Assembly (NCBI GenBank): GCA_022572805.1 | Contig: JACZVF010000002.1 | Location: 1-43,693, forward strand | Direction: 5' to 3' | Origin: Chloroflexota bacterium | Lineage (GTDB): Bacteria > Chloroflexota > Dehalococcoidia > Lucifugimonadales > JADFKI01 | Length of the DNA: 43,693 nt | Position numbers and translations under genes: made by a program | Part shown: positions 1,050-31,765 of the stretch, piece after piece | How the letters are laid out: each line of letters begins with the position of its first letter | How positions within the stretch are numbered: position 1 is the first letter of the stretch | Notes under the pieces: model-generated | What the model was told of the DNA's origin: nothing | Seen by the model: only the letters and a program-made list of their open reading frames with translations | Databases searched by the model: none

Positions 1050-2183
1050 TCACCACTGCACGAACATCGGCATGACTACGTGGATGTAGTCGTCGTTGTT
1101 GACTAGCTTCAGGACGCCGGGGCTGGATGGTGACGTGGTCTCCAGGGCGACTTCGCCGCTGCCAAGCACGTCCAGTACCTCCGAAAGGTACTTGGCGTTG
1201 AAGGCAATCTTGGAGTCGTCGCCTTCCACCTGCGCGCTGATCTCCCCCTGGTTGTCGCCAAGCTCCTCTGCCCGGGACGATATCCGCAGCCGGCCGGTGG
1301 AACCGTTGTCGCCACCGGACATCTGCAAGCGGACAATGCCGCTGCCGTCCTTCGCGAAAATCGACGCCGTCCTGGTAGCCCGCAGGAAATCGTCCAGGCC
1401 AACCACGGCCCTGGTGCCGTAGCTTTGTGGTATGAGCTGAGAGTAGTTGGGGAAGGTGCCCTGGATTAGCTGCGACACGATCTCGACGTTGTTCAGCTTG
1501 AACAGGGCCTGACTCTTGTTCGGCGTTACGGTGAACTCCACCAACTCCTCTTGCGATGCGATTGCACGGCTTACCTCTTGCATGGCCTTCGATGGAATGA
1601 TGAAGTTGATCTCCTCCGGCATGGCTTCGGCCAGCTTGCCCTTGTATACGGCCAGCCGGAATCCGTCCGCAGCCGCAAAGGTGAAGTCGTCGCCGGTTAT
1701 CTCGACCTTGACGCCGGTCAGAACCGGCCTGGAGTCTTCCGTGGCGGCGGCAAAGGCTACGTGAGTGATTGCATCGCGCAGCACCTTGGGGTCGATCTTG
1801 CCAACCACACCCGAGTCCACGTTGGGTATGGGCGGGAAGTCCTCCGCATCGGTCCCGTTTATATGGGCCTCGAAGCTGGCGCAATGTAACGCCAGGCCCT
1901 TTGGCTGAGCGGTGGACTCGATATCGATACGTTCGGAAGGCAGAGAGGCCACGAACTCAGTCAGTAGCCTGGCCGGAATGGTGATTGAGCCCTCTTCCTC
2001 CACCTGTGCGCCAATCCAGGTGGTGATGGCAATCTCCAGGTTGGTGGCCGACAGCTTGAGCTGTGACTGGTCCGTCGAGATCAGGACGTTCTGAGTTATG
2101 GGCAGCGTGGTCCGCGTGTTAACGGCCCTCTGTACTGTGGAAAGACCTCGCGCCAGATTCTCTTGCAAACAGGATAGCCGCAT
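1050..2183 (-). CDS. dnaN: DNA polymerase III beta sliding clamp
   Basis: Track ORF 1050..2243. The sequence MRLSCLQENLARGLSTVQRAVNTRTTLPITQNVLI...LKLSATNLEIAI... and its ~378 aa length are typical of the beta clamp. I moved the start to ATG 2183 because a consensus promoter lies inside the longer ORF. Confidence 0.93.
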   Translation of the reverse strand: MRLSCLQENLARGLSTVQRAVNTRTTLPITQNVLISTDQSQLKLSATNLEIAITTWIGAQVEEEGSITIPARLLTEFVASLPSERIDIESTAQPKGLALHCASFEAHINGTDAEDFPPIPNVDSGVVGKIDPKVLRDAITHVAFAAATEDSRPVLTGVKVEITGDDFTFAAADGFRLAVYKGKLAEAMPEEINFIIPSKAMQEVSRAIASQEELVEFTVTPNKSQALFKLNNVEIVSQLIQGTFPNYSQLIPQSYGTRAVVGLDDFLRATRTASIFAKDGSGIVRLQMSGGDNGSTGRLRISSRAEELGDNQGEISAQVEGDDSKIAFNAKYLSEVLDVLGSGEVALETTSPSSPGVLKLVNNDDYIHVVMPMFVQW

Positions 2184-2214
2184 ACCTCTACGTCCCCCTT
2201 CAGTAGCTAGGGTT

Positions 2215-2243
2215 AGTATATGGATGCGAATATCTGGCGTCAA
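2215..2243 (-). promoter_or_regulatory. Sigma70-like promoter for dnaN (TTGACG-N17-TATACT)
   Basis: On the minus strand the -35 TTGACG is at 2243-2238 and the -10 TATACT at 2220-2215, with a 17-nt spacer. This is about 30 nt upstream of the dnaN ATG. Confidence 0.5.
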
Positions 2244-4336: not shown

Positions 4337-6820
4337 ATGGTTACATCCACTGACGATCAGAAGCTAACTATTCCAATCAAGGGCATGACTTGCGCCTCAT
4401 GCGTTTCCCATGTGGCCGGTGCGTTGGAGGAGGTGCCCGGCGTCGACGAGGTAAACGTCAACCTCGCCACGGAGAAGGCGACTGTTGGCCTCCTCAAGAA
4501 CGAGGTTGATCTGGACTCACTCATCGATGCCGTGGAGGACGCTGGATATGGCGTCGGCACTGAAAAGGTCATTCTGGCGGTTGGCAACATGACGTGCGCC
4601 TCATGTGTTGGTCATGTGGAGAAAGCCCTGGCTTCTGTTCAGGGGGTACGGTCCGCCAACGTGAATCTGGCCACGGAAAGAGCCACAATCGAGTACGTAC
4701 CAGGGGTAGCCGGTATTTCGGCAATGCGGCACGCCGTGGAGGACTCCGGCTACACCGTTATCACAGTGGTAGGTGATGAGCACGACGACGCAGCCACGCC
4801 TAAGGATGCTCTGGTGCTGCGCAGCAAGTTCACCGCCAGCCTTGTTGTTGCGGGCGTAATAATGGCTTTCATGTTCATTCCAGGGGCCATGAGATTGGTC
4901 CCATTTGAGTTGAACTACCTCTTGCTGGCGCTGGCCACGCCCATACAGTTCTGGGCGGGCAGGCAGTTCTACAGGGGCGCCTGGGGTGCGTTGAAGCACG
5001 GCACCAGCAACATGAATACGCTCATCGCCGTGGGCACGTCTGTAGCGTTCTTTTATAGCGTAGCTGTGACCTTGTTCGCGGGCACATCATTTTTCCAGGG
5101 CCAAGACGTCGAGACCTTTTTCGACACCTCCACGGCCATCATCGGTCTGGTCCTGCTGGGCAAGTATTTGGAGGCCCGGGCCAAGAGCAGGGCGTCCAAT
5201 GCAATCAAGTCGCTGATGGGCATGCAACCCAAGACAGCAAGAGTAATCAGAGACGGGGCTGACGTAGAGATATCCATTGAAGACCTTGAGGTCGGCGACC
5301 TGGTGCTGGTCCGGCCTGGCGAGAGAGTGCCTGTGGATGGCGTGATCACTGAGGGCTCATCCACTGTGGACGAGTCCATGCTCACGGGCGAGAGCCTTCC
5401 CGTCGAGAAGACGGCAGGAAGCGAAGTCTTCGGCGCGACCGTCAATACCACGGGCAGCTTTACGTTCCAGGCCAAAAGCGTTGGGCGGGACACAATGCTG
5501 TCTCAGATCGTGAGGCTGGTGGAAGAGGCGCAGGGCTCCAAAGCCCCCATACAGCGGACCGCCGACCTCATTGCGGCTTATTTCGTGCCGGCCGTCATAG
5601 GTGTCGCGGCTCTGACCTTCGCCGTGTGGCTGGCGCTGGGCCCGTCGCCGTCTTACGTCCACGCGATCTTGACGGCGGTTGCCGTGCTAATAATAGCCTG
5701 CCCGTGCGCCATGGGTCTGGCGACGCCTGCAGCAATAATGGTCGGCACCGGCAAGGGCGCCGAGAGCGGCATCCTCATCCGTAGCGCCGCCGCCCTGGAG
5801 CGGGCTCACAAGGTACAGGTGGTGGTGCTGGACAAGACCGGCACGCTCACTGTCGGCAAGCCGTCCGTCACCGATATTGTTGAGGGCGGCATGAATGAAA
5901 CCGAGCTCCTGACACTAGCCGCCTCGGTGGAGCGGTCGTCGGAGCACCCCCTGGGACAGGCCATTGTTGATGCGGCGCGTGAGCGGCAGTTGCAACTGGT
6001 CGATGTGCGAGATTTCAACGCCCTGCCGGGCTTCGGTGTGAAGGCCGAGGTAAACGGCGCAACGCTGTCTTTGGGTAATTTGGCGTTGATGCAGCAAGAC
6101 GGCCTGCACCTGAATGGGCTGGAGGCGAAGGCGCAGGAGCTGTCGAGTCAGGGCAAGACTGCGATGTTCGTGGGTTCCAAGGGCGAGGTGCAGGGCATCA
6201 TCGCAGTGGCCGACACGCTACGTCCGGAGTCCAGGAACGCCGTTAAGGCAATGCGAGCCCAGGGCCTGGAGGTGGTGATGCTCACCGGCGACAACGAGCG
6301 CACGGCAAACGCCATAGCCGCCTTGCTGGATGTGGATAGGGTGGTGGCGGAGGTGCTGCCCGGCGACAAGGCCGAGCAGATCAGGGCTATTCAAGCCGAA
6401 GGAAAGGCAGTTGCCATGGTCGGCGATGGCATAAACGATGCCCCGGCGCTGGCGCAGGCCGACGTGGGAATCGCCATCGGCACCGGCACCGACGTTGCCA
6501 TGGAGGCGGCCGACATCACGCTGGTGCGGGCGGACCTTCACGGCGTGTCCACCGCCATAAGCCTGAGCAAGGCGACGATGCGTACTATCAAGCAAAACCT
6601 GTTCTGGGCGTTCGCCTACAACGTGGCGCTAATACCGATAGCGGCCGGCGTCCTGTTCCCGCTGTTCTCTGATGGCAGCGTACCCACAGCCTTGCGTCCG
6701 ATCCTGGGAGAGTTCGGCTTTCTGAATCCTATTCTGGCCGCCGGCGCCATGGCCATCAGCTCTGTTACAGTGCTTACCAATTCGCTCAGGCTACGCCGAT
6801 TCAAGGTCAAGTCCGGTTAA
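4337..6820 (+). CDS. copA: Cu(I)-translocating P1B-type ATPase
   Basis: Two N-terminal HMA domains carry GMTCASC. The CPC motif ([11 protein letters not shown]), DKTGTLT, TGDN and [10 protein letters not shown] motifs are all present. Confidence 0.95.
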
Positions 6821-6862: not shown

Positions 6863-7066
6863 ATGAAAATCCCATTGATCAATCGAGGTGGCGGAGAGAC
6901 GGCGGTCGACCCGGTGTGCCACATGGATGTGGATATGGCCAAGCCTAATGGCGGCACATTCGAGCACAAGGGCGATACGTACTACTTTTGCGGTCCGGGC
7001 TGCAACAGGGCCTTCGAGAAGGACCCTGAAGCCTACCTGTCCGGCGAAAAAAAGATGGAGATGTAA
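6863..7066 (+). CDS. YHS/TRASH-domain small metal-binding protein
   Basis: DPVCHMDV...YYFCGPGCNRAFEKDPEAY matches the YHS domain pattern. The RBS is GAGGAGAAG. It is the third gene of the copper operon. Confidence 0.8.
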   Translation: MKIPLINRGGGETAVDPVCHMDVDMAKPNGGTFEHKGDTYYFCGPGCNRAFEKDPEAYLSGEKKMEM

Positions 7067-7096
7067 AACGGCCTGGCTCCCCAATGACGGCTACCA

Positions 7097-7131
7097 GAGG
7101 CCGCGCACACTAATGCGCGGCCTCACTTTTC
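7097..7131 (+). terminator. Intrinsic terminator after the copper operon
   Basis: A perfect 11-bp stem, GAGGCCGCGCA (7097-7107) with TGCGCGGCCTC (7114-7124), encloses a 6-nt loop and is followed by a T-tract. Confidence 0.75.
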
Positions 7132-7309
7132 TCTGTACAATGACAGGGTATATGGACGAGAAGCCGGGTGTTGGCGGAGTCGCGTACATCTTGGTTCGCG
7201 TAAGGATGTCAGTGCCAACATGTCGAGTGCGCGACCTGCAAAATGTCATGCCAATCTATCAAGTGTGGTGCGCCGGCCGGCCAATGCGAATCCAGGTCAT
7301 CCGGAACAA

Positions 7310-7395
7310 GCCGAAGTGGCGGAATGGTAGACGCGACGGTCTCAAAAACCGTTGTCCTCACGGACGTGTCGGTTCGACTCCGACCTTCGGCACCA
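7310..7395 (+). tRNA. tRNA-Leu (anticodon CAA), long variable arm, CCA encoded
   Basis: The acceptor stem is GCCGAAG/CTTCGGC. The anticodon stem-loop is ACGGT-CTCAAAA-ACCGT. The variable arm is GTCC..GGAC and the T arm GTCGG-TTCGACT-CCGAC. The gene ends in ACCA. Confidence 0.9.
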
Positions 7396-7402
7396 GCATA
7401 AC

Positions 7403-7440
7403 AAAGCCGCTCCTGGTATATCGCCGAGAGCGGCTTTTCC
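7403..7440 (+). terminator. Possible terminator after the tRNA
   Basis: AAAGCCGCTC (7403-7412) pairs with GAGCGGCTTT (7428-7437) and is followed by TCC. The loop is large (15 nt). Confidence 0.4.
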
Positions 7441-7676
7441 TTGTAAAAAAGACAAATGTTCACGGAGCTATGTTGTTCATGCTTGGTGTTCTTCGGCTTC
7501 AGACAAGACAGGGGCCCCCCCAATCTCGGCAGTGGGAGCCTTTTGTTACAGACTCGGCTAGAGGGGCGATGGCGACGTTGTTTCCGCGGCCGCCGCAACG
7601 ACATTGGAGATACTCCGCCACTTCATCGCCCGTCATCACTATGCCGCCTTTGCCCTACGTCGTTTGGCGCGACCCG

Positions 7677-8158
7677 TTATCCACGAACGCTCTTGGCCGC
7701 GCTGAATCCACCCGCGCCTATCATGCCGAGTCCGCAAATGGCGACCACGGTGTAATAAATTGGCGGCACCAGGTCTGAAATGGACTGGGCGCCGGCCAAG
7801 CTGCAGATGCCGGTCGACGGCCCAGACGTTACCGCATGGGAGATGAAGGTAGGCCCGAGGACCAAACCGAAGATGAGGAACAGAATTCCTCCGAATAGGG
7901 CCAGAACTGGTACCTAATATGTGCTCTTGGGAGCGCCCAACTCTGCCATGACCTGGCGCCTGTAGCATGGGGATATCTCGACTCTTTCCAGTACCGCAAC
8001 GATCTCTGCGGCACCCACGAGCCGGTGTGGCCTTCGTCCAGCACCGGTATCGCCGTATCTTTCAGACGGTGCGGTTCGGGAGACAGCTCAGCTGCCATCT
8101 GCTTCAGATCGGCGTTGTTCCGCTTTATGGCGTTGACCACCTGATGTCGTGGTAACAT
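7677..8158 (-). pseudogene. Possible decayed gene: HTH-like segment, in-frame TAG, then a two-TM segment
   Basis: In one frame, VGAAEIVAVLERVEISPCYRRQVMAELGAPKSTY (8018-7917) is followed by TAG (7916-7914). The same frame then continues as VPVLALFGGILFLIFGLVLGPTF...YYTVVAICGLGMIGAGGF...* to 7677. The membrane part has no well-placed start codon. An upstream ATG (8158) is in a different frame. Confidence 0.3.
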
Positions 8159-9416: not shown

Positions 9417-10169
9417 CTACTGGGCCGTGTAGCCACCATCGATGACAAGCTCACTGCCTGTCATGTAAGACGATTCGTCGGACGCGAGGAACAGGACTCC
9501 ATAGGCGATGTCTTCGGGTTGGCCGTACCGTCCCATGGGGGTGCTGTCGATACTATTCTGGTAATGTTCGGGGTCGGCCCTGCTGGCTTCGTTCATCGGT
9601 GTGGCGATGGGGCCTGGGTGCACGGAGTTGACTCGAATGCCGTCGTTCGCGTATTGAATGGCCGTGGCCTTGGTCAGAAGCCGCACCGCCCCCTTGGATG
9701 CGTTGTATCCTGGGTGAATTCTATGCTGCCCAATCATGCCTGAAATGGACGATATGTTTATGATAGAGCCGCCACCGGCCTTGCGCATCTCGGGAATCAC
9801 CGCCTTTATGCCGAGAAATACGCCCTTGGCATTCACGTCCATCAACCGGTCCCATTCCTCGACCGTCGCATCGTCGCCAGATTGGTTGTAGACGATTCCG
9901 GCGTTGTTCACGAGAATGTCGAGCTTTCCGAACCGCGACACCGCCATATCGACGGCGTTTTGCCAAGACAGCTCATCGGTAACGTCCAACGAAACGTAGA
10001 TCGCTTCTCCGCTCGACTCGCTGATCTCGGCCTCCACCTGCTTGCCAAGGTCGTCGCGCACGTCGCCGAACACGACCTTCGCCCCCTCCTTCGCGAACAT
10101 GCGGGCCTCGGTTGCGCCCATGCCGCGTGCGCCCCCACTTATGATCGCCACCTTGCCTTCAAGTCTCAT
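9417..10169 (-). CDS. Classical SDR oxidoreductase (FabG/glucose-1-dehydrogenase-like)
   Basis: GKVAIISGGARGMG, NNAG and the YxxxK motif (YNASKGA) are present. The start is set to ATG 10169, which follows AAGGAGG. Confidence 0.9.
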   Translation of the reverse strand: MRLEGKVAIISGGARGMGATEARMFAKEGAKVVFGDVRDDLGKQVEAEISESSGEAIYVSLDVTDELSWQNAVDMAVSRFGKLDILVNNAGIVYNQSGDDATVEEWDRLMDVNAKGVFLGIKAVIPEMRKAGGGSIINISSISGMIGQHRIHPGYNASKGAVRLLTKATAIQYANDGIRVNSVHPGPIATPMNEASRADPEHYQNSIDSTPMGRYGQPEDIAYGVLFLASDESSYMTGSELVIDGGYTAQ

Positions 10170-10426
10170 CGGTCCGCCTCCTTGGATGTTCTGGATCATA
10201 CATCTGCACGATTTACGGGATTGCGAAATTCCCCTGAAACGCCATCTCGGTCCTCAGGCGGGCACGACAGCATTGTCCACGACGCAAACGATTCCCCATT
10301 TCGACTTCCGACACGTTAGACGGCCAAGCATCTGGGCCTGAGTATATTTGTCCGCGACAAGCTCTCTATCGTTCCCTTGGACATCTCAATTTCGATCATA
10401 TACAGCCATAACTTTTCCGGGATTGA

Positions 10427-12073
10427 CTACGCTCTGTACTGGTCAATCCCTACGGTTGCGGGGCTGGGGCCGGTCGGCATTACCAGAGTCTTGGCCCTGT
10501 CCGCTCCAACCACCACGATGTAATATCGGTCCGCGCTTTCCAGAACAGGCACCGTCATGTCCAGGCGCTCCTGCTCCGTCAGGCTTTCCAGCCATTTCCA
10601 GTTAGCGGCCACCCGTTCCTCTCCTTCCAGCGGCATGTACTGAATCATCTTTCCCAGGCTGGCGTTGGCATGCATGTGAATGAACTCCATGGCGGCCCGC
10701 TTGGAAAAGCCTTGAGCCCCAACTGGGCGCGCCACATCCGGCGGCATGAATATAAGCCTCTCGGCGCCGTGGCGCTCTCCAAGACTGCGAGTCCCGAAGC
10801 TGAGGCCATATGCTATGGTCTTTAGCAGCCCTTCGGCAGTTGTGTTTCCCTGGTCCTGCACATCCAGTTCGCCATTCGTGATGAACACGCTCACCGCGCT
10901 TTCTTCAGCCTTGAATCCCGCGTTCACGTGGTACGGTTCCCAGGGGCTCATGTCCTCGTTCTCTGCTATGCAGTGGACGAACTTGCGAGTGGTGCCGATG
11001 GTGTCCATGTCCATCTGGTTGGGATACCAGTATCCAATATTTCTCAAGCATAGAGAGAATGCCCGGCCAATGGTGATATTTACCCGGTTGTCGCGCCCGG
11101 GTCCCAACGCCGACCTGGGATTTATGCCAAGCTCCTTGGCGATGGGACCGTTCACCACCAGAATTGGGGCATGGGGGCTGGTGGACATCAGGAGTGACTT
11201 GCCACCATGAGGACCCAACTGAGGCATGGCATTGACAGCCGCCATGATCACAGGCATGTGCTCAGGCTTGGCGCCCGCCATCGCAGCGTTTATGGCGATC
11301 TTCTCCACCGTTGCGAGGCCAAAGCCCGGAGGCATATCGCATACCAGGTGGTCGGCCGGCATATTCGTGCCCTTTACCAGCTCTTCGACTGCCCCCGGGG
11401 TCGGGGGGTGCAAGGGGAAGCCGTCTCCCCAGTCCTGCTGGATAAACTCTTCGTTCATGCGTAGAACGGCATCGTACAGGTCGTCCCCCTCGAAGCGATG
11501 CATGCCGGAGGTGACGACAGAGCTGTCCCGCTCGCCGGCATCGCCGCTGGAGGTGAGGATATTTACAATGTCGTCAAAGGCCAGCTCCGTCTGTCTGGCA
11601 CACTCATCAAGGGGCAGGTTTCGGTAAATTCTTGGAACGATCACGAACTGCAAGTCCGGCATGGCGAAGGCGCGAGAGCTTGCGATGGCATCGCCCTCGA
11701 ATCGACCTGAGACGATAGGCACTGCGGGCTTGCCCATCTTCTCGATCTCGATCATGTCGTGGACCATCCACGACGCGCACGTCCCTCAATCGGCTGTCGC
11801 GCCGATAACGACATCGCACTCCTCTCCAGCCTGCTTCACGATATGCGGAGGATTGGGGTAGCCGCCGCCCTTATAGAATTTCAGCTCGACGTTCTGGAAC
11901 CTCTCCTGGAGCATTCTCCCCGCCGTTTTGAGCGCGACGTCCCCACCATGCGTGCCGCTCCAAATCAGGCCGACCACCTTGTTATCCAGACTAGCCGGCC
12001 TGGGGTTTATGGTCATCGCCGTCGCTACGCCCCTTTGCGGGGCCACCGGATTCAATACCTCCAGCAGATGCAT
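10427..12073 (-). CDS. Predicted selenoprotein: UxxC (UGSC-like / GrdB-like) N-terminal domain fused to a ~450-aa uncharacterised domain; Sec at UGA 11788-11786
   Basis: Track ORFs 11786..12073 and 10427..11767 are in the same frame and are separated only by TGA. Read-through gives ..VVIGATAD-U-GTCASWMVHDMIEIEKMGKPAVPIV... A SECIS-like hairpin lies 11 nt downstream. GGGAGG sits 7 nt before ATG 12073. Confidence 0.7.
11756..11788 (-). promoter_or_regulatory. UGA plus SECIS-like stem-loop
   Basis: The mRNA reads UGA GGGACGUGCGC GUCGUGG-AUGGU-CCACGAC. The 7-bp perfect stem becomes 8 bp if the closing A-U pairs. The GG of the apical loop lies about 21 nt from the UGA. Confidence 0.6.
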
Positions 12074-12594
12074 GTACTTACCTCCCTGTTCGGATGGGTC
12101 GTTGCAATAATAGCTCTATCCTATTACAGACCCCCGGGTAAAGTCTCGCAGAGCCCTGCAAGGCCCGTGGATCCTACAGAAACGAATGAGGTCCGGACTC
12201 AGAAATTGAAGCGCAGAAAACTATACACCCAGCTGGACCTCCGTGTTGTAGGGCAGGTGCGGAAACGCACCAGCAGAAATCGGGAAAAATGGTCCAATAT
12301 AGCCAACTCCGATTCCCACCTTTGGCGCCAGCAACCACAGCATAATGGGCCGGGATGTGTGAAGCCGATTAGGCCCTGTTTTCCGCTTTTCTCGCCGGAT
12401 GCCCAGGCAAGAGTCACTTGATTACGGTGCGGGCGCCGAATGCTCGTTGGCAGAATCCGCGTTCTGAGGCAGTCGACGGAAACGGTTGGGCCAGTTGTTG
12501 AAGTAATCGTGACCCGCAGCATGCGTGCCGGCGTGAAGGCGAGAGCGGCCGTTTTTGTTGGCTGGCGGGCATGGTGATTTGGTAGACTACAAAG

Positions 12595-15821: not shown

Positions 15822-16175
15822 TCAGGACACCTTGGAAAGTATGAATCCGCGTTCCCCGGTGACCCTCATTGCATTGGGTCTGGGGATTATCACTCCCGCC
15901 AGCGAGTCATCCAGGATGCTGGCGTTAAACTTCCACGTAAGCTGCACGGGGTCCATCGGCAGACCGGTGGTGGAAAACACGGCCTCGTTGTATTTTAGCC
16001 GTCGCGCCAACTTTACGTTCGAGCCGTCCCAGTTGTTTTTGCCTTCGACGGGTTGTTCGAATCGCACCTGTACCGTGTTGTCGGCGATATTCATGGAAAT
16101 GGAGACAGCGCGGGCCTCCTGCTCACCCGGCAGCACCAGGGTCCCTCGGTACTCCAGTTCACTGTTGTCTGTCAT
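15822..16175 (-). CDS. Hypothetical protein (117 aa)
   Basis: The ORF has protein-like composition and AGGAAA lies upstream of the ATG. I recognise no family. Confidence 0.5.
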   Translation of the reverse strand: MTDNSELEYRGTLVLPGEQEARAVSISMNIADNTVQVRFEQPVEGKNNWDGSNVKLARRLKYNEAVFSTTGLPMDPVQLTWKFNASILDDSLAGVIIPRPNAMRVTGERGFILSKVS

Positions 16176-16431
16176 ATTCGTTTCCTATGTCTGGGATGTT
16201 GCCTGCGTATTGCATAGGATATCGCACGGGCCCAGTTATCACAATTCTGCCGCGAAGGCGATGCGTGTCGATTGGCCATCCAGGTGTCACGGCCACAGCG
16301 AAAGCCCGGTAGGAATGGAGGCGAATAATGATGAAATGGTATTCTGGGGCTGGTTCCCGGTTTTGCGTGCGCCGGACAGGGGAGCAAACCCAGCGCTGGA
16401 GATGTATCCGAAGCGATTGCGACGAGGAAGT

Positions 16432-16659
16432 CTAAGCTACTGTAAACAGCTCTCTGTAGAGAATGGTGACCATCTCTTTCTCCGTCAAATCGAACGAGTA
16501 CCCGATATTCAGAAATTCGTGGATGCGGTCAGCCCTGTCTTGCTCCTCGTCTGGCGTAAGCGGACTTCCGGAAACTATAACTCTCTTGGCGTACTCTTTC
16601 AGTATGGCAAGATGGTGGAAAAACTGCTCAATCCGATCTGTGGAGGTGGAAGACGACAA
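16432..16659 (-). CDS. Hypothetical protein (75 aa)
   Basis: A TTG start follows AGGAG with an 8-nt spacer. The protein is acidic and helical-looking. I recognise no family. Confidence 0.45.
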   Translation of the reverse strand: MSSSTSTDRIEQFFHHLAILKEYAKRVIVSGSPLTPDEEQDRADRIHEFLNIGYSFDLTEKEMVTILYRELFTVA

Positions 16660-17122
16660 TTCTCTGACTCCTAATCAAACGGCTCCGTGCCCTGTCTGAC
16701 TGAATGTGGCTAGGTTGGGGACACAGGTGGACTGGCCGGCGCCGGCACGACATCGAAGCTGTCCCGCAGTCCAAATTAGCAGCTTGAAGGGAATGGCCTG
16801 GGGTAATTTCCGTGCATGGCGGGGGACATCGCAGTGAAATCTTGTGACACCGCCGTGAAACCTGCGTTCCTTTCGTTTTGGTTTTACGCGCCATCACCAG
16901 GTGAATCGGAACCGAATACCTTACGGAGGTTGGGAATTAGTTCGGGATTCGACCATTGAGACGAAGAAAATGTTTGAAGTCTGGAGAAAATTATGTCATA
17001 ATGAATTGATTTTAAAATTGACAGTGTACACGCATAAAAGGGCATGTTATTACTAAATTCGTAAGTAACGATATGTTTTTATGTAAAATACCATTTTAAA
17101 GTAGGGAAGGTTTAAAGGTTAA

Positions 17123-20575: not shown

Positions 20576-23485
20576 ATGGTTACAAAGGCTGCGGAGTCCG
20601 ATACGAGGGAGCTTGTCGAAGAGTTGAGCCGCCTCGTTTCCGGCGAGGTCAGATTCGACAAGATGACCCGGATGCTCTATAGCACCGATGCCAGCCTTTA
20701 CCAGATAGAGCCCATCGGCGTTGTGCTGCCCAAAAACGCCGAGGACGTAATCGCGGTAGTCGAGACGGCCAACAGGCATGGCGTGCCTGTGCTCCCCCGT
20801 GGCGGTGGGACCAGCCTGGCCGGTCAGACCGTGGGGCAGGCCATCGTGGTGGACTTCTCCAAGTACATGCGGGACATCATTGAGGTAAACGAGGAAGAGG
20901 GTTGGGTCAGGGCCCAGCCGGGCATCATTCTCGACGAGCTAAACCACGAGATACGCTCCACCAATATGATGTTCGCTCCCGACCCCAGCACCAGCAACCG
21001 AGGCAATATTGGCGGCGCGCTGGGCAACAACTCCTGCGGCGCTCACTCCATCGTGTGGGGCAAGACCGTTGACAACGTGCACGATATGGACGTGGTCCTG
21101 TCCGACGGCGCGACGGCGAATTTCGGGGCGCTCAACGGCGCCCAGCTTGAGGCCAAGCTGCGCGCGGACGGCCTCGAAGGCGACATATACAGGACCATTT
21201 TTGCGGTGGGCGACGCCAACCGCGACGAGATTCTGGCCCGCTACCCCAAGATTCAGCGGCGGGTTTCCGGCTACAACCTGGATGAGTTCGTAGGCGGTAG
21301 CGAGTTCAACATGGCGCGCTTCGTCGTGGGCTCGGAGGGCACGCTGGTCACCATCACGGAGGCCAAGCTGAGGCTGGTGCCCATGCCAAAGTTCAAGGCG
21401 CTGTCCGTGCTGCATTTCGATGACCTCATCGAGTCGATGGAGGCCACTGTCATCGCCCTGGAGATCGACCCGTCCGCCGTGGAGCTCATTGGAAGCATGA
21501 TTCTGCGGCAGGCGCAGTCGAATCTGGCGTACGCCCGCATGACCGATTTCATCGTCGGGCAACCCGAGGCCCTGCTGGTCGTTGAGCTGACGGGCGAGAC
21601 CGAGTCCGAGCTAAACTCCAAGCTGGATGACCTGGAGGGACGCATGCGGCGCGGCGGCATGGGCTATGCAATGCCGCGGCTGACGAGCGCGTCGGACCAG
21701 GCCAATGTGTGGGATGTCCGCAAGGCCGGCCTGGGCCTGATGATGAACGTTCCGGGCGATGCCAAGCCCCTGCCGTTCGTGGAGGACACGGCCGTTGCGC
21801 CCGAGAAGCTGCCCGAGTTCGTAAAGCGCTTCGACGAGATAGTCCGTGCCCACGGCACAGAGGCCGGCTACTACGGGCACGCCAGCGTGGGGTGCCTTCA
21901 CATTCGCCCGCTTATCGATATCAAGCAGTCCGATGGCGTTGACACGATGGTGTCCATCGCCGAGGAGATAAGCGACCTTGTGCTGGAGTTCGGCGGGTCC
22001 CTCAGCGGCGAGCACGGCGATGGCCTTGTACGCAGTCCTTTCAACGAAAAGATGTTCGGAGGCCAGCTTTACCAGGCTTTCCGCGAGGTGAAGAAGGCCT
22101 TTGACCCCGACGGCATCATGAACCCCGGCAAGATAACGGACGCTGCCCCCATGACGGAGAATCTGCGATTGGGGCCGGGTTACAGCACCGTGCCCGTTAA
22201 GACTGGCTTTCATTATTCCGAGGAAGGTAGCTTCGCCCACGCCATCGAGATGTGCAACGGGCAGGGCGCCTGCCGAAAGGTCCTGGGCGGCACCATGTGC
22301 CCATCGTACATGGTGACCCGAGAGGAGGAGCACTCCACCCGCGGCCGGGCAAACGCCTTGCGCGGGGCGATGTCCGGCGCGCTGCCCGCCGGTTCGCTCA
22401 CCAGCAAACGATTGTTTGATGTCATGGACCTTTGTTTGGAGTGCAAGGGCTGCAAGGCCGAGTGTCCCTCCAACGTGGACATGACCAAGCTGAAGTACGA
22501 GTTCCTGGACAAGTATCACAAGGCCAACGGGTTCCCGCTTCGGAACCGTATATTCGGCAACGTGGCCGCCTTGAGCAGGCTGGGCTCGTTTTTCGCGCCA
22601 CTGACCAACTGGTCTATGAAGACCGGCGTGTTCAAAGACCTTCTGGAGAAATACGCCGGTGTGGATAGGCGACGGACACTTCCCCCACTTGCCGGCCAGA
22701 GCTTCACGCAGTGGTTTAGGGCCAGGGGTGGCTCGCCTGCGGCCAACGCCAGGCTGGGCCAGGTGCTCCTCTTCCCGGACACCTTCACGAACTACAACCA
22801 TCCGGAGCTTGGCCGGGCCGCGACGAAGGTCCTTGAGGGCATGGGCTTTCAGGTGGTGCTGCCCAAGGTGACCTGCTGCGGCCGGCCAATGCTTTCCAAG
22901 GGCATGATGGACAAGGCTAAATCGGCGGCGTTGACCAACGTGGACAGCATTTACGAGCATGTCAAGAACGGCGTCAAGCTGGTGGGCATAGAGCCCAGCT
23001 GCATCCTCAGCTTCAAGGACGACTACCCGGACCTGTTGGCGGACAACGAGCGTGCCAAGACCGTGGCCGAAAACACGATGCTTATCGAAGAGTTCGTGCT
23101 GTACGCCCAGGAAGAGCTGGGAGCCGAGCTCAAGTTCACGAAGCCGCCCAAGAAGGTTCTGCTGCATGGCCACTGCCACCAGAAGGCGCTGGTGGGCACG
23201 GCCCCGGCAATGCAGGTGCTGAACTCCATTCCCGGCTGCGACGCCAGGGAGATTCCATCGGGATGCTGCGGCATGGCCGGCTCCTTCGGCATGGAGAAGG
23301 AGCATTACGATATGTCCATGAGCATCGGCGAAATGACACTGTTCCCGGCCATACGCGACGCCATGCGCGCCGGGGAGGGCGAGTTTGAGATGGTTGCCGA
23401 GGGCATATCGTGTCGCCAGCAGATCCGGGACGGGACAGCCAAGTCGGCCAAGCATCTGGTCGAGCTGCTGGCGGACGCCATGTGA
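20576..23485 (+). CDS. FAD-linked oxidase fused to a 4Fe-4S / CCG-domain module (YdiJ-like D-2-hydroxyacid dehydrogenase)
   Basis: An N-terminal FAD_binding_4 domain (PRGGGTSLAGQ) is present. The middle region has the ferredoxin motifs CxxCxxCxxxCP (CLECKGCKAECP). The C-terminus has two CCG repeats (TCCG, GCCGMAG). At 969 aa the length resembles E. coli YdiJ. Confidence 0.85.
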   Translation: MVTKAAESDTRELVEELSRLVSGEVRFDKMTRMLYSTDASLYQIEPIGVVLPKNAEDVIAVVETANRHGVPVLPRGGGTSLAGQTVGQAIVVDFSKYMRDIIEVNEEEGWVRAQPGIILDELNHEIRSTNMMFAPDPSTSNRGNIGGALGNNSCGAHSIVWGKTVDNVHDMDVVLSDGATANFGALNGAQLEAKLRADGLEGDIYRTIFAVGDANRDEILARYPKIQRRVSGYNLDEFVGGSEFNMARFVVGSEGTLVTITEAKLRLVPMPKFKALSVLHFDDLIESMEATVIALEIDPSAVELIGSMILRQAQSNLAYARMTDFIVGQPEALLVVELTGETESELNSKLDDLEGRMRRGGMGYAMPRLTSASDQANVWDVRKAGLGLMMNVPGDAKPLPFVEDTAVAPEKLPEFVKRFDEIVRAHGTEAGYYGHASVGCLHIRPLIDIKQSDGVDTMVSIAEEISDLVLEFGGSLSGEHGDGLVRSPFNEKMFGGQLYQAFREVKKAFDPDGIMNPGKITDAAPMTENLRLGPGYSTVPVKTGFHYSEEGSFAHAIEMCNGQGACRKVLGGTMCPSYMVTREEEHSTRGRANALRGAMSGALPAGSLTSKRLFDVMDLCLECKGCKAECPSNVDMTKLKYEFLDKYHKANGFPLRNRIFGNVAALSRLGSFFAPLTNWSMKTGVFKDLLEKYAGVDRRRTLPPLAGQSFTQWFRARGGSPAANARLGQVLLFPDTFTNYNHPELGRAATKVLEGMGFQVVLPKVTCCGRPMLSKGMMDKAKSAALTNVDSIYEHVKNGVKLVGIEPSCILSFKDDYPDLLADNERAKTVAENTMLIEEFVLYAQEELGAELKFTKPPKKVLLHGHCHQKALVGTAPAMQVLNSIPGCDAREIPSGCCGMAGSFGMEKEHYDMSMSIGEMTLFPAIRDAMRAGEGEFEMVAEGISCRQQIRDGTAKSAKHLVELLADAM

Positions 23486-23567
23486 TGACGGCCGTTTCGC
23501 GGTTGGCGTATTTCGGCCCCGCTGCCTTCGTTTGACGCCACCGTCCGGGCTGCGGGAGGAGATGTTT

Positions 23568-26054
23568 ATGAGCATCCATGATTTCGAAGTCCCGGCGCAC
23601 AAGCTGAACACGGTGTGCGACCCCGACTCCCTGGGGTTTGAGACCACCGCCGAGGTAGAGCACCTGGACGGCACCATCGGCCAGGAGCGGGCCATGAGCG
23701 CGCTGGAGTTGGCCGTCGATATCGAGGCTGACGGCTACAACCTTTTCGTGTCGGGCGTCCCCGGCTCCGGAAGAAACACGGCCTTGCGCTCTTACCTTGA
23801 TAAGGTCGCATCAGCCAAGCCGAACCCGCCGGACTGGGGCTACGTCTACAACTTCGAGGAACCCTCTCAGCCGCTGGCCATCAGCATGACATGCGGCATG
23901 ATGCGCCAGCTAGGTCAGGACATGGACCAGCTGACCAGCGCATGCCGCCAGGAGATACCAAGAGCCTTCGACACGGACGACTACTCTCACCGAATCGAAG
24001 AGGTAATGCAGGAAATCCAGGAGAAACGCCAGTCCCAATCTACCGAGTTGGAGCAGGAGGCGCAGAGGCTGGGTTTCACCGTGTCGTTTACGCAGAGCGG
24101 CATTACGCCGGTGCCGCTTGTCGAGGGACGTCAGATGACCCAGGAGGAGTTCGCTAATCTCTCGGACGAACTTCGGGAGAGCTTCCGCACTCGCGCCGAT
24201 GAGGTTCAGCACGAAATCGCGCGCCTGACCCGCGAGATGCGGCGGCTGAACAAAGAGGCCTCCGACAAGACAAATGAGGTGGACACCGAGGTCGTGCGGG
24301 TAACCCTTTCGCCGATAATCGACGAGCTGCAGGGAAAGTACGCCGACTTTCCGAAGGTCGTTCAGTTCCTGGCCGATGTCGAGGCGGATATGGTTAGGAA
24401 CATCGATGTATTCAAGCCAAGCGAAGGCCCGCCAATGCCTGCGTCGCCACCCCAAATGCCGGCGCTGCCGAGCGACGGTGACGATTTCTTCATCCGCTAC
24501 AAGGTGAACTGCCTGGTGGACAACACCAACTGTCAGGGAGGGCCGGTGATATTCGAGTTCAGCCCTACCTACTACAACCTGTTTGGCCGTATCGATTACC
24601 GCGCCAGGGTCGGCACATTTACAACTGATCTCACGATGATAAAGGCGGGTGCGCTTCACAGGGCCAACGGCGGCTACCTGGTGCTGCAGGCCAGGGATGT
24701 GCTCCTCAGTCCCCTCTCCTGGGAGGCGCTGAAGCGCAGCCTGAGAAGCGGGGAGGTCCGCATCGAGAACATCGGGGAGCAGAATAGCCCATTGCCGTCG
24801 GCCACGTTGCGGCCCCAGGCTATACCCATTGACGCCAAGGTGATTATGGTCGGCAGCCCTCAGCTCATACAGATGCTCCGCTCCATGGACGAGGACGTCC
24901 GCAGGTACTTCAAGGTGAACGCCGATTTCGATACGGTAATGGACAGAAACCAGGAGAATGAGAAACAGTACGCCTCGTTCGTGGCCTCTAGGACCAGTGG
25001 CAACACTCTTATGCACTTCCACAAGACCGCAGTGGCCAGGGTCATCGACTACTCTTCGCGCCTGGTGGAAAACCAGGAAAAGCTGACGACTCGATTCCTG
25101 GATATCGCGGACATTCTGACCGAGGCCAACTACTGGGCCGACAAAGATAACGGCGATCTGGTCATGGGTGAGCACGTTTCCAAGGCCGTGGAGCAGAAAC
25201 GCTACCGGCTAAGTCTTACCGAGGACCACCTGCAGGAACTCATAGCAGAGGGCACCATCCACATTGCCACTGAAGGCAAGGCGGTTGGCCAGGTTAATGG
25301 GCTGGCCGTTTACTCCGTTGGCGACTACGCATTCGGCAAGCCCAGCAGAATATCGGCGCGCGTCTCCCTGGGTCGCGGCCAGCTCGTGAACATCGAACGC
25401 GAGACCGACCTGAGCGGCAAGATACACAGCAAGGGCTTCATGATACTTACGGGCTACATGCACGGTCAGTATGGTCAGGACAGGCCGCTGTCCCTTGCCG
25501 CCAGCATCGGCTTCGAGCAGACCTACAGCGAGGTGGATGGCGACAGCGCCTCCTCCACTGAGTTGTACGCCCTGATATCGGCTTTGTCGGGCATGCCGCT
25601 GGACCAGGGTATCGCAGTGACCGGCTCCGTGAACCAGGCGGGCGATGTGCAGGCCATCGGTGGCGCGACCTTCAAGATCGAGGGCTTCTTTGACGTTTGC
25701 AGCGCGGCGGGGCTTACAGGATCACAGGGCGTCATGGTGCCCAGGGACAACGTGAAAAACTTGATGCTGAGAGACGACGTGACGCAGGCGGTAAAAGACG
25801 GCAAGTTCCATATCTACGCGGTGAGCACCATAGACGAAGGGCTTGAGGTGCTTACCGGCGTTGCGGCGGGGGAGAGGCAGGAGGGCGGCACCTTCATGGA
25901 GGGCACGGTGCATCACGCGGTCGAGGCGCGGCTTGAGGAATTTGGCAGGAAGGCCAGGGAGTTCGCCAGGACAGGCGCCGCCTCCCAGCCTGAAGACGGG
26001 GATGAAGACGACAGTACGGTCTCCAATGACGCAGGGCTGTCCGCGAGGGCCTAG
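23568..26054 (+). CDS. Lon-like serine protease with degenerate AAA+ motifs (LonC-like)
   Basis: The C-terminal Lon protease domain is present (DGDSASSTELYALISALSG..., IGGATFKIEGF). The Walker A position reads GVPGSGRNT, with R in place of K. The Walker B position reads GGYLVLQARD, with no DE. The start is ATG 23568, 6 nt after GGGAGGAG. Confidence 0.8.
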   Translation: MSIHDFEVPAHKLNTVCDPDSLGFETTAEVEHLDGTIGQERAMSALELAVDIEADGYNLFVSGVPGSGRNTALRSYLDKVASAKPNPPDWGYVYNFEEPSQPLAISMTCGMMRQLGQDMDQLTSACRQEIPRAFDTDDYSHRIEEVMQEIQEKRQSQSTELEQEAQRLGFTVSFTQSGITPVPLVEGRQMTQEEFANLSDELRESFRTRADEVQHEIARLTREMRRLNKEASDKTNEVDTEVVRVTLSPIIDELQGKYADFPKVVQFLADVEADMVRNIDVFKPSEGPPMPASPPQMPALPSDGDDFFIRYKVNCLVDNTNCQGGPVIFEFSPTYYNLFGRIDYRARVGTFTTDLTMIKAGALHRANGGYLVLQARDVLLSPLSWEALKRSLRSGEVRIENIGEQNSPLPSATLRPQAIPIDAKVIMVGSPQLIQMLRSMDEDVRRYFKVNADFDTVMDRNQENEKQYASFVASRTSGNTLMHFHKTAVARVIDYSSRLVENQEKLTTRFLDIADILTEANYWADKDNGDLVMGEHVSKAVEQKRYRLSLTEDHLQELIAEGTIHIATEGKAVGQVNGLAVYSVGDYAFGKPSRISARVSLGRGQLVNIERETDLSGKIHSKGFMILTGYMHGQYGQDRPLSLAASIGFEQTYSEVDGDSASSTELYALISALSGMPLDQGIAVTGSVNQAGDVQAIGGATFKIEGFFDVCSAAGLTGSQGVMVPRDNVKNLMLRDDVTQAVKDGKFHIYAVSTIDEGLEVLTGVAAGERQEGGTFMEGTVHHAVEARLEEFGRKAREFARTGAASQPEDGDEDDSTVSNDAGLSARA

Positions 26055-31714: not shown

Positions 31715-31765
31715 CGTCCTGAAATAACCTTCAAGACGGCCACAGGCCCATCACGAGGTGAAGCC

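What the first reader, a model, noticed from the sequence alone, without database searches (positions are those of the whole stretch)
10427..12073. In-frame UGA with a SECIS-like hairpin fuses two ORFs into one UxxC selenoprotein
ORFs 11786..12073 (95 aa) and 10427..11767 (446 aa) share a strand and a frame. The only interruption is TGA at 11788-11786. Read-through gives ...ECDVVIGATAD-U-GTCASWMVHDMIEIEKMGKPAVPIV..., a U-x-x-C redox motif. Eleven nt after the UGA the mRNA can fold as GUCGUGG-AUGGU-CCACGAC (11774-11756), with GG in the apical loop about 21 nt from the UGA. That is the geometry expected of bacterial SECIS elements. The ATG of the downstream track ORF lies inside this hairpin loop and has no well-spaced RBS, whereas ATG 12073 follows GGGAGG. 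From memory, the context resembles the 'UGSC family (seleno)protein' described from marine metagenomes and the Sec segment of GrdB-type reductases. A standard gene caller would split or truncate this gene.
Basis: partly seen in the sequence, partly recalled or inferred. Interest (0 to 1): 0.85.

Follow-up and report, generated by a model that had tools for sequence, protein, structure and literature searches.

The report
Split selenoprotein gene, UGSC family
Two adjacent reading frames are really one 548-residue gene whose in-frame UGA codon encodes selenocysteine; it is a mis-called member of the known UGSC selenoprotein family, fused to a widespread partner domain of unknown function.

Summary
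On the minus strand, ORFs 12073-11786 and 11767-10427 share a frame and are separated only by TGA at 11788-11786. A 7-8 bp hairpin starts 11 nt after that TGA.

- TGA sits at the same codon in 80/80 related genomes, in 8/8 distant homologues, and in 74/79 UGSC domains from diverse metagenome loci.
- Distant full-length homologues carry Cys at that position (C-G-S/A/N-C).
- Coding constraint is the same on both sides of the TGA.
- Pfam UGSC (PF24696) matches residues 6-174, across the UGA.
- The hairpin codons have almost no synonymous variation, the lowest in the gene.
- In distant relatives the stem keeps pairing through compensatory changes, always in the same register.

So this is a real U-G-T-C selenoprotein that gene callers truncate: 120/120 top database homologues are cut at the same point.

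One addition is that the about 350-residue C-terminal domain has no Pfam match and no confident PDB match. It is almost always fused or adjacent to a UGSC module (77/80 loci). The pair probably forms a two-module redox enzyme whose substrate is unknown.

The UGSC family, and a UGSC fusion to an unknown domain, were already published in 2005-2008. I could not test for selenocysteine machinery in the source genome.

The parts
10427..12073 (-). Complete selenoprotein gene: 548 codons (95 + Sec + 452) plus TAG stop. ATG at 12073-12071, stop at 10429-10427.
   Evidence: Searches show one frame with a single internal TGA. tblastn covers residues 1-547 in 80 genomes. Conservation begins exactly at M1, with start codon ATG in 77 and GTG in 4 sequences. 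Nucleotide entropy at codon positions 1/2/3 is 0.49/0.33/1.21 upstream of the UGA and 0.44/0.25/1.23 in the C-domain.
12081..12086 (-). Shine-Dalgarno-like GGGAGG, 7 nt upstream of the ATG.
   Evidence: Read directly.
11786..11788 (-). UGA codon 96, read as selenocysteine.
   Evidence: TGA is present in 80/80 genome loci, in 8/8 distant homologues and in 74/79 metagenomic UGSC domains. Cys is aligned here in full-length distant homologues. TGA is an ordinary stop in 5 of 23 other window genes, so the genetic code is not reassigned.
11777..11788 (-). Redox motif U96-G-T-C99, preceded by the strand-like VVIGATAD and followed by ASWMVHDM.
   Evidence: The family motif is mostly UGSC (59), then UGGC 5, UGAC 3 and UGTC 2.
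11756..11774 (-). SECIS-like hairpin. Stem arms are 11774-11768 and 11762-11756, with apical loop AUGGU at 11767-11763. It begins 11 nt after the UGA.
   Evidence: - It is folded in the minimum-free-energy structure.
- Codons 101-106 have normalised synonymous entropy 0.012 against about 0.70 elsewhere, the lowest 6-codon window in the gene.
- 92% of cells are paired, against 18-45% in slid controls, with compensatory U-A>A-U and G-C>C-G changes.
- 48/74 diverse Sec forms pair 7/7 in the same register, mean 6.07 against 1.5-3.5 when slid.
11552..12058 (-). UGSC domain (residues 6-174), the selenol/thiol redox module.
   Evidence: Pfam PF24696 scores 99.3 bits against a gathering score of 25. 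NCBIfam NF041046 scores 89.3 bits, below its cut-off of 125.
11474..11548 (-). Poorly conserved linker (residues 176-200) between the two domains.
   Evidence: Identity to the window sequence drops to 0.32 here, against 0.6-0.95 on either side. Entropy at all three codon positions is raised. pLDDT is low at ORF residues 79-83. Stand-alone UGSC genes end at about this point.
10430..11485 (-). C-terminal domain of about 350 residues (residues 197-548), function unknown. Its motifs include DWGDGFPLxPPT, ATVEKIAINAAMAG, VNGPIA, LGPG..N..IGRA and C368-x-A-E371-N-E.
   Evidence: - No Pfam or NCBIfam family matches.
- No PDB sequence match.
- The AlphaFold2 model has pLDDT 91.2 and pTM 0.91, but only weak fold matches with TM 0.18-0.24.
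- 4063 cluster representatives match at E < 0.001.
- E269 (fused E371) is invariant. Cys is at 76% in 'MAGC' and 74% in 'CxAENE' across the family.

Best explanation
Window positions 12073-10427 (minus strand) form one gene for a 548-residue selenoprotein.

**Decoding (inferred from comparative evidence).** The ribosome reaches UGA at codon 96. A stem-loop that starts 11 nt downstream (11774-11756) acts as a bacterial SECIS element. It recruits SelB carrying Sec-tRNA(Sec), so selenocysteine is inserted instead of terminating.

**Domains.** Sec96 and Cys99 (U-G-T-C) form the redox centre of an N-terminal UGSC-family domain. A short linker joins it to a C-terminal domain of about 350 residues. 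That domain has no described family.

**Likely mechanism (inferred, not shown).**
- The C-terminal domain is the substrate-binding, catalytic part. Its candidate active-site residues are Cys368, the invariant Glu371, and Arg337, Asp355 and Glu373 (each conserved in at least 90% of the family).
- The UGSC module is its dedicated two-electron redox partner, cycling between selenol/thiol and selenenylsulfide.
- The module is then re-reduced by a general thiol system.

**Biological role.** Probably a self-contained reductase-type enzyme acting on a small organic compound, possibly a carboxylate, in heterotrophic Dehalococcoidia/SAR202-like bacteria. The substrate is unknown.
For: **Sec decoding**
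- TGA is invariant at this codon in 81/81 close sequences, although the gene's true stop codon varies.
- TGA is also present in 8/8 homologues at 34-52% identity and in 74/79 UGSC domains from 80 diverse metagenome loci.
- Cys is aligned at this position in full-length homologues.
- The third-position variability pattern is the same upstream and downstream of the UGA.
- The Pfam UGSC domain spans the UGA.
- TGA is a normal stop elsewhere in the window.

**SECIS element**
- Synonymous variation is almost absent exactly at the hairpin codons.
- Stem pairs change in a compensatory way and the register is fixed.
- One homologue (L088) keeps the 5' arm but pairs it with a displaced 3' arm.
- Two Cys forms (L096, L098) still carry the hairpin.

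**Two-module enzyme**
- The C-domain has a UGSC domain fused or adjacent on the same strand in 77/80 loci.
- The pair occurs fused (47 Sec, 4 Cys) or as two neighbouring genes (27 Sec) (examples L089, L091, L092).
- In one cluster representative (P0365) the UGSC module is replaced by an AhpC/TSA thioredoxin-fold domain.
- Thioredoxin plus a thioredoxin-reductase-like gene, glutaredoxin, or NifU-like genes lie near some members.
- Neighbours are often solute-binding proteins: the tricarboxylate receptor family TctC and SBP_bac_5, a family of ABC-transporter binding proteins. Catabolic enzymes are also frequent: CoA-transferases, SDR, MaoC, aconitase-type and enoyl-CoA hydratases.
Against: - No selA, selB, selC or selD lies in the 43.7-kb window, and the source genome could not be searched.
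- The hairpin alone is only marginally more stable than shuffled sequence.
- No Rfam SECIS family matches it.
- Among the 81 close sequences the stem is invariant, so covariation comes only from distant relatives.
- For the mechanism, the gene neighbourhood is not conserved: at most 17/81 loci share a neighbour, and the top Pfam family among 147 neighbours has 6 members.
- No fold match is convincing.
- The two family-wide cysteines are not universal. This subfamily has Ala at the 'MAGC' position.
- I could not model the N-terminal half together with the C-domain, so contact between Sec96 and the C-domain is not shown.
Confidence: 0.92

Rival explanations
1. These are two separate genes. A 95-residue protein ends at an ordinary UGA stop, and a 446-residue (or 442-residue) protein is started independently at the ATG in the hairpin loop or at the next ATG. 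The conserved hairpin would serve coupling, re-initiation or mRNA stability.
For: Gene callers annotate it this way in every database entry. In other family members the UGSC module and the C-domain are truly separate genes.
Against: - The split in those members lies after the complete UGSC domain (about residue 185-200), not at codon 96. Their UGSC genes still carry the same in-frame TGA.
- The Pfam UGSC domain runs across the UGA.
- Cys replaces the stop in full-length homologues.
- The codon is TGA in 81/81 sequences, whereas real stops vary.
- No RBS precedes ATG 11767.
Confidence: 0.03
2. The UGA is read through as an amino acid other than selenocysteine. Examples are Trp, Cys or Gly, by near-cognate or suppressor decoding or by a reassigned code.
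For: Sec machinery was not found in the window. Conservation alone shows that the codon is translated, not what is inserted.
Against: - TGA ends 5 of 23 other genes in the window, so the code is standard.
- The aligned residue in homologues is Cys, in a C-x-x-C redox motif.
- A hairpin at the spacing used by bacterial SECIS elements co-occurs with the TGA family-wide.
- The family is an established selenoprotein family (PMC2398784, NCBIfam NF041046).
Confidence: 0.03
3. This is a pseudogene or an assembly or sequencing error that introduced a stop into a Cys-containing gene.
For: A single TGC/TGT to TGA change would give this picture in one sequence.
Against: The same TGA appears in 80 independent genomes and in 8 + 74 metagenomic relatives. 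Purifying selection acts on both sides of it.
Confidence: 0.01

Closest known systems
UGSC-containing selenoprotein family (Zhang, Fomenko & Gladyshev 2005; Zhang & Gladyshev 2008, PMC2398784; Pfam PF24696; NCBIfam NF041046)
   Same: - The domain matches above the Pfam threshold, across the Sec codon.
- It has a U-x-x-C motif after a D/G-rich strand end.
- Sec forms far outnumber Cys forms. The paper reports 255 Sec against 21 Cys in the ocean-metagenome data; here 74 against 4.
- A SECIS hairpin follows directly downstream.
   Different: - The motif is U-G-T-C, not U-G-S-C.
- The score is below the NCBIfam equivalog cut-off (89.3 against 125).
- The domain is the N-terminal third of a 548-residue protein rather than a small stand-alone protein.
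'UGSC/Unknown_1 fusion' noted in Zhang & Gladyshev 2008 (PMC2398784, Figure S1A)
   Same: A UGSC module is fused to a conserved domain of unknown function. That domain also occurs on its own and carries conserved Cys (compare).
   Different: Identity of Unknown_1 with this C-domain could not be verified. The figure is held only as an image, and the stored sequence supplement is cut before the UGSC section. The near-obligate pairing (77/80 loci), the split-gene and reversed-order forms and the AhpC/TSA swap do not appear in the passages of that paper that I read.
E. coli fdhF-type bacterial SECIS element (SelB-binding hairpin in the coding sequence just after the UGA)
   Same: - It is a stem-loop inside the reading frame.
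- It begins 11 nt after the UGA.
- It has a G/U-containing apical loop about 19-21 nt from the UGA.

The fdhF spacing and loop requirements are quoted from my own knowledge, not from a tool.
   Different: - It is a short, perfect 7-8 bp stem with a 3-5 nt loop and no bulged U.
- No Rfam family matches it.
- SelB binding is untested.
GrdB/PrdB selenoprotein subunits of glycine, betaine and proline reductases (Pfam GRDB PF07355)
   Same: They have a U-x-x-C selenoprotein motif (PMC2398784, Table 2). The Sec-bearing polypeptide works together with a separate substrate-activating polypeptide.
   Different: No sequence similarity was detected: no GRDB hit at E <= 0.1. No pyruvoyl-proprotein partner (GrdE/PrdA) or GrdA was seen among the neighbours.
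Class I (Fe-S) fumarate hydratase alpha subunit and Toblerone-fold cyclic amide hydrolases (best fold matches of the C-domain)
   Same: They give the best Foldseek hits: 7xky_A at E 2.5e-4 and probability 0.82, and cyanuric acid hydrolases at E 0.05-0.2. Like them, the model is built of alternating helices and strands.
   Different: TM-scores are only 0.18-0.24, rmsd is 12-19 A and identity is 6-10%. No three-Cys cluster motif is conserved. This is a hint, not homology.

Membership tests
Bacterial selenoprotein gene (UGA-Sec with SECIS) | In-frame UGA that is conserved, with coding constraint on both sides | tested here: met
   TGA is present in 81/81 close sequences, 8/8 distant homologues and 74/79 metagenomic UGSC domains. 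The codon-position entropy pattern is the same upstream and downstream.
Bacterial selenoprotein gene (UGA-Sec with SECIS) | Homologues with Cys aligned to the UGA | tested here: met
   Full-length proteins of 549-574 aa carry C-G-S/A/N-C at the site. Of 27 representatives that span the site, 22 have Cys.
Bacterial selenoprotein gene (UGA-Sec with SECIS) | Stem-loop immediately downstream of the UGA, conserved as a structure | tested here: met
   The hairpin starts 11 nt after the UGA. Synonymous variation at its codons is suppressed. It covaries, and pairing is 92% against 18-45% in slid controls. 48/74 diverse members are fully paired in the same register.
Bacterial selenoprotein gene (UGA-Sec with SECIS) | Sec machinery (selA, selB, selC, selD) in the same genome | not testable with these tools
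   None is in the 43.7-kb window: there is only tRNA-Leu and no matching Pfam domains. The source genome is not available.
Bacterial selenoprotein gene (UGA-Sec with SECIS) | Selenium actually incorporated into the protein | not testable with these tools
   Needs 75Se labelling or mass spectrometry.
UGSC family (Pfam PF24696) | Match to the family model above the gathering score | tested here: met
   99.3 bits against a gathering score of 25; residues 6-174 match profile positions 2-171 of 172.
UGSC family (NCBIfam NF041046, equivalog) | Score at or above the curated cut-off (125 bits) | tested here: not met
   89.3 bits. The three Cys-form fused relatives tested (P0231, P0246, P0336) also score below the cut-off, at 56-110 bits. 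This places the gene as a relative of the family, not an equivalog of the stand-alone protein.
UGSC family | U/C-G-S-C motif | tested here: inconclusive
   The window has U-G-T-C. U-x-x-C is kept, and Ser becomes Thr. The family shows UGSC 59, UGGC 5, UGAC 3 and UGTC 2.
UGSC/Unknown_1 fusion (PMC2398784) | The fused domain is the same as 'Unknown_1' | not testable with these tools
   Figure S1A is held as an image only, and the sequence supplement is truncated.
GrdB/PrdB (Pfam GRDB PF07355) | Match to the GRDB model | tested here: not met
   Only UGSC was reported at E <= 0.1.
Class I fumarate hydratase / Toblerone-fold enzymes (C-terminal domain) | Significant global fold similarity | tested here: not met
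   The best match has E 2.5e-4 but TM 0.18/0.24 and rmsd 19 A. Sequence and profile searches of the PDB find nothing.

The most novel reading that the evidence does not exclude
The UGSC selenoprotein module and the undescribed domain of about 350 residues together form a new, widespread selenium-dependent enzyme. There are more than 4000 clusters at 50% identity. The two modules occur fused, as adjacent genes, in reversed order, or with the UGSC part swapped for an AhpC/TSA domain. On this reading the C-domain is a new catalytic fold that carries out a reductive step on small organic acids or related compounds in SAR202/Dehalococcoidia and many soil and aquatic bacteria. The 20-year-old 'UGSC-containing protein' would then be its dedicated redox subunit rather than a free-standing thioredoxin-like protein.
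Probability: 0.35. Interest if true: 0.65.

Novelty: new member of a known kind. Interest (0 to 1): 0.4.

Why it matters
**Annotation.** This gene and all 120 best-matching database relatives are recorded as truncated 'hypothetical proteins', with the N-terminal fragments called as separate proteins. The active-site half of the redox domain is therefore missing from protein databases. Selenium use in Dehalococcoidia/SAR202 and their relatives is likely undercounted as a result.

**Biology.** One of the most abundant aquatic selenoprotein families (PMC2398784) still has no known function. The near-obligate pairing with a single uncharacterised domain gives a concrete handle. The fused protein, or the gene pair, can be expressed as a Cys variant, its structure solved and substrates screened.

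If the reading were wrong, nothing would follow beyond two hypothetical proteins.

Tried and rejected
- **Rfam.** A scan of the window at gathering scores, and a permissive scan of 11690-11840, found no SECIS family. This was expected for short bacterial SECIS elements.
- **Single-sequence folding.** It gave only weak support, so I turned to comparative evidence.
- **Covariation in close relatives.** The consensus fold of 81 close sequences showed no covariation in the core stem, because it is invariant. Distant homologues were needed.
- **Cys forms among close relatives.** None was found with the word-indexed search. They appeared only in the exhaustive search of cluster representatives.
- **GrdB likeness.** No HMM support.
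- **C-domain identity.** All of the following were negative:
  - Pfam and NCBIfam, on the window protein and on 19 divergent relatives.
  - PDB by sequence and by profile.
  - Foldseek with a weak model (pLDDT 70).
  - Foldseek with a good model (pLDDT 91), which gave only low-TM hits.
- **Conserved gene neighbourhood.** None was found in 81 close loci or among 147 neighbours in diverse loci.
- **The 2008 paper's 'Unknown_1' domain.** The figure is an image and the supplement is truncated.
- **Full-length model.** The tools would not accept the fused U-to-C sequence.
- **Other split ORFs.** Forty-one other in-frame-TGA ORF pairs in the window were not tested. By position, the longer ones lie antisense to annotated genes or span the gap between adjacent genes.
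- **Literature on Sec use.** Searches for SAR202 and Entotheonella gave nothing usable.
Full report
**Observation.**

On the minus strand, ATG 12073 opens a frame that runs to TAG 10429-10427 with one interruption, TGA at 11788-11786. GGGAGG sits 7 nt before the ATG. The read-through product has 548 residues and reads ...ECDVVIGATAD-U-GTCASWMVHDMIEIEK....

Eleven nucleotides after the UGA, the RNA folds as GUCGUGG(A)-UGG-(U)CCACGAC (11774-11756). The ATG that starts the 446-residue track ORF lies in the loop. On its own the fold is barely better than shuffled sequence: z = -0.95 for 61 nt and -1.99 for 44 nt. The case therefore rests on comparison with relatives.

**Is the UGA translated?**

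- *Database homologues are all truncated.* A search of 5.8 billion proteins with the fused sequence (U replaced by C) gave 2201 hits. All 120 best hits cover only about 72-81% of the query; 118 are 438-450 aa, one is a 395-aa partial and one is 502 aa, and all lack the N-terminal part. A search with residues 1-178 returned only fragments that end or begin at the UGA.
- *The DNA settles it.* A scan of one genome per species found 80 loci whose translation matches residues 1-547. They come from Dehalococcoidia, SAR202 and Chloroflexota MAGs and from Candidatus Entotheonella. All 80 have TGA at the aligned codon, flanked by ...GATAD-U-GTC[A/C]SWMVHDM....
- *The start is conserved.* Conservation starts exactly at Met1 (MH/YLLEVLNP), with start codon ATG in 77 sequences and GTG in 4.
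- *Both sides are coding.* Nucleotide entropy at codon positions 1/2/3 is 0.49/0.33/1.21 for the 95 codons upstream of the UGA and 0.44/0.25/1.23 for the C-terminal domain. Both sides are under the same coding constraint in the same frame.
- *The internal codon does not behave like a stop.* The gene's real stop varies (TAG 37, TAA 26, TGA 17), while the internal codon is TGA in 81/81 sequences.
- *The code is standard.* TGA ends 5 of 23 other genes in the window.

**What is inserted?**

An exhaustive HMMER search of 1.84 billion cluster representatives, using the 446-residue part as query, found 4063 relatives. Among them are full-length proteins of 549-584 aa at 33-42% identity. The site reads C-G-S-C in P0231, P0244, P0246, P0249, P0255 and P0370, C-G-A-C in P0234 and C-G-N-C in P0307. 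A few have lost the motif.

Of the 144 representatives newly returned by this search (the other six in the top 150 were already held):
- 67 begin just after the site. These are truncated gene calls, so probably Sec forms.
- 27 span the site, and 22 of those have Cys there.
- 35 lack the UGSC part.

Eight of the truncated representatives (34-52% identity) were traced to their contigs. All eight have an in-frame TGA at the same place, with U-G-[S/T/A/Q]-C. One has U-G-G-G. Cys aligned to a conserved UGA is the standard signature of selenocysteine.

**The hairpin.**

- *Close relatives.* In the 81 close sequences, the six codons that form the stem (Ser-Trp-Met-Val-His-Asp, codons 101-106) are essentially fixed at the nucleotide level. 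TCG is used 81/81 times although Ser has six codons; GTC 79/80; CAC 81/81; GAC 81/81. Their normalised synonymous entropy is 0.012 against about 0.70 for the rest of the gene. This is the lowest 6-codon window in all 548 codons.
- *Distant relatives.* Here the stem changes but stays paired. U-A becomes A-U in L083 and L087, and G-C becomes C-G in L083, L085 and L087. 92% of cells are paired, against 18-45% when the 3' arm is slid by 1-3 nt, and no shuffle of 500 reached the observed covariation score.
- *A displaced arm.* L088 keeps the 5' arm and pairs it with a 3' arm displaced by 6 nt.
- *Stand-alone UGSC genes.* They carry UCGUGCA-GUG-UGCACGA at the same spacing.
- *Metagenomic Sec forms.* Across 74 of them, 48 pair all 7 positions in the fixed register (mean 6.07, slid controls 1.5-3.5). 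Variants include GUCCCUG/CAGGGAC and AUCAUGG/CCAUGAU.
- *Cys forms.* Two (L096, L098) retain the hairpin. This looks like a leftover from a recent Sec-to-Cys change.
- *Rfam.* No family matches.

The 11-nt spacing and the G/U-containing loop fit what I know of the E. coli fdhF element. That comparison comes from memory, not from a tool.

**Family.**

Pfam UGSC (PF24696) matches residues 6-174 at 99.3 bits, against a gathering score of 25, running across the UGA. The NCBIfam 'UGSC family (seleno)protein' equivalog matches residues 32-174 at 89.3 bits, below its cut-off of 125. Three Cys-form fused relatives tested also fall below it.

The UGSC-containing protein was described from ocean metagenomes as a major selenoprotein family, with 255 Sec and 21 Cys members. 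It was thought to have a thioredoxin-like fold, and a 'UGSC/Unknown_1' fusion was noted (PMC2398784). I could not confirm that Unknown_1 is the domain seen here, because the figure is an image and the supplement is cut. The recalled likeness to GrdB got no support.

**The C-terminal domain.**

Residues about 197-548 match no Pfam or NCBIfam family, in the window protein or in 19 divergent relatives. They match no PDB sequence either.

With a diverse 76-sequence alignment, AlphaFold2 gave a confident model (pLDDT 91.2, pTM 0.91). Foldseek against the PDB gave only weak matches. The class I fumarate hydratase alpha subunit scored E 2.5e-4, but with TM 0.18-0.24 and rmsd 19 A. Toblerone-fold cyanuric acid hydrolases scored E 0.05-0.2. 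I treat this as no established fold relative.

Family-wide conserved positions (fused numbering):
- Asp217, Gly218 and Pro220 within DGxP
- Asn262, Met265, Ala266 and Gly267 within NAxMAG
- Asn308, Gly309 and Pro310
- Gly336, Arg337 and Ala338
- Asp355
- Glu371, which is invariant, and Glu373

Cys is found in 76% of members at 'MAGC', where this subfamily has Ala268. It is found in 74% at 'C-x-A-E-N-E', which is Cys368 here. The close subfamily of this gene additionally fixes Cys245 and nearly fixes Cys342.

**The two modules belong together.**

Three proteins that looked like stand-alone C-domains were checked, and each locus also holds a separate UGSC selenoprotein gene with its own TGA and hairpin. 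In L089 and L091 that gene lies directly upstream, overlapping the C-domain gene by 8 nt in L091. In L092 the two UGSC genes lie downstream of the C-domain gene, and a second C-domain gene begins right after the second of them.

A metagenome scan seeded only on the C-domain returned 80 diverse loci.
- In 77 of them a UGSC domain lies on the same strand next to the C-domain. It is usually just upstream, and downstream in 4.
- Of 79 UGSC hits, 74 have TGA at the Sec site, 4 have Cys and 1 has another residue.
- 47 Sec forms are fused and 27 are encoded as a separate neighbouring gene.
- In P0365 an AhpC/TSA thioredoxin-fold domain takes the place of UGSC.

Other neighbours vary. Among 147 neighbours, TctC appears 6 times, SBP_bac_5 4, DAO 3, SDR 3, TPP enzymes 3 and enoyl-CoA hydratases 2. 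Family III CoA-transferases, MaoC and aconitase-type hydratases, thioredoxin plus a thioredoxin-reductase-like gene, glutaredoxin and NifU-like genes occur in single loci. In the 81 close loci nothing is shared by more than 17. In the window itself, an SDR gene (9417-10199) follows on the same strand.

**How it most likely works.**

*Supported by comparative sequence evidence, not by experiment:* one gene; UGA decoded; a conserved structured element at SECIS position; a UGSC domain with U-x-x-C; obligate association with the C-domain.

*Inferred:*
- SelB-dependent Sec insertion.
- The C-domain binds and transforms a small substrate. Candidate active-site residues are Cys368, Glu371, Arg337 and Asp355.
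- Sec96/Cys99 supply or accept two electrons through a selenenylsulfide.
- A general thiol system restores the reduced state.

The replacement of UGSC by a ResA/AhpC-like domain, and the nearby thioredoxin and glutaredoxin genes, fit a thiol-reductant role. The transporter and catabolic neighbours suggest a small organic substrate, possibly a carboxylate. The substrate is unknown.

**Not tested.**

Sec machinery in the source genome was not tested. The window has only tRNA-Leu(CAA) and no sel genes. Selenium incorporation and SelB binding were not tested.

**Verdict.**

It is a new, mis-annotated member of a known selenoprotein family in an architecture that was probably glimpsed in 2008. The wider point worth following is that UGSC appears to be the redox module of an uncharacterised, very widespread two-module enzyme.

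Noticed in passing
L096, L098 (metagenome loci, UGSC domains): Two Cys-form (TGC) homologues keep a fully paired 7-bp hairpin at the SECIS position. This looks like a leftover SECIS from a recent Sec-to-Cys replacement.
   Followed up: partly
L087:1477-1520 and L088:568-611: L087 has U-G-G-G, so it lacks a resolving Cys. L088 keeps the 5' arm of the hairpin but pairs it with a 3' arm displaced by 6 nt, giving a 7-nt loop.
   Followed up: partly
L005, L006 (Candidatus Entotheonella) compared with L001-L080 (Dehalococcoidia/SAR202): The protein is 80-81% identical between Entotheonella (Tectomicrobia) and Chloroflexota MAGs. That is as close as many Chloroflexota are to one another. It could reflect lateral transfer between organisms sharing a habitat, or mis-binned contigs.
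   Followed up: no
L092:3055-6669: One 6.7-kb contig carries two stand-alone UGSC selenoprotein genes, two family III CoA-transferases, a TctC receptor and two copies of the C-domain gene. It is a small paralogous cluster.
   Followed up: partly
L118, L131, L153, L171; also L125, L130, L142, L145: In four loci the UGSC domain lies downstream of the C-domain rather than upstream. Several loci carry two UGSC/C-domain pairs.
   Followed up: no
P0274, P0304, P0305, P0327, P0369 (709-741 aa): These proteins match the C-domain in two stretches, which suggests a tandem duplication of the domain. No Pfam family matched the four of them that were scanned.
   Followed up: no
window 7310-7395 (+): A tRNA-Leu(CAA) gene lies here. 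The mechanical ORF 6888-7778 runs over it and is probably not a gene.
   Followed up: no
window 30278-31570 and 31652-32785 (+): The M16 peptidase gene ends in TGA, and the lactonase gene that follows is in the same frame (433 and 404 open codons). This is most likely two adjacent genes by coincidence. It was not tested as a Sec candidate.
   Followed up: no
window 20576-23485 (+) and 23385-26054 (+): The first is a 969-residue protein that combines FAD-linked oxidase, 4Fe-4S dicluster and CCG domains, resembling a GlcD-GlcF fusion. It is followed by a LonB/LonC-like AAA protease. The listed ORFs overlap by about 100 nt, so the second start is probably further downstream.
   Followed up: no
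window 27653-29038 (-): A 461-residue protein with Redoxin/AhpC-TSA and Thioredoxin_10 domains, that is, another thiol-redox protein in the window. No link to the selenoprotein was examined.
   Followed up: no
window 1050-2243 (-) and 4337-6820 (+): These are dnaN (the DNA polymerase III beta clamp) and a heavy-metal P-type ATPase with two HMA domains. The window is chromosomal.
   Followed up: no
window 26650-27600 (-), 15832-16674 (+), 38782-40344 (+): Three sizeable ORFs (316, 280 and 520 aa) have no Pfam match at E <= 0.001.
   Followed up: no
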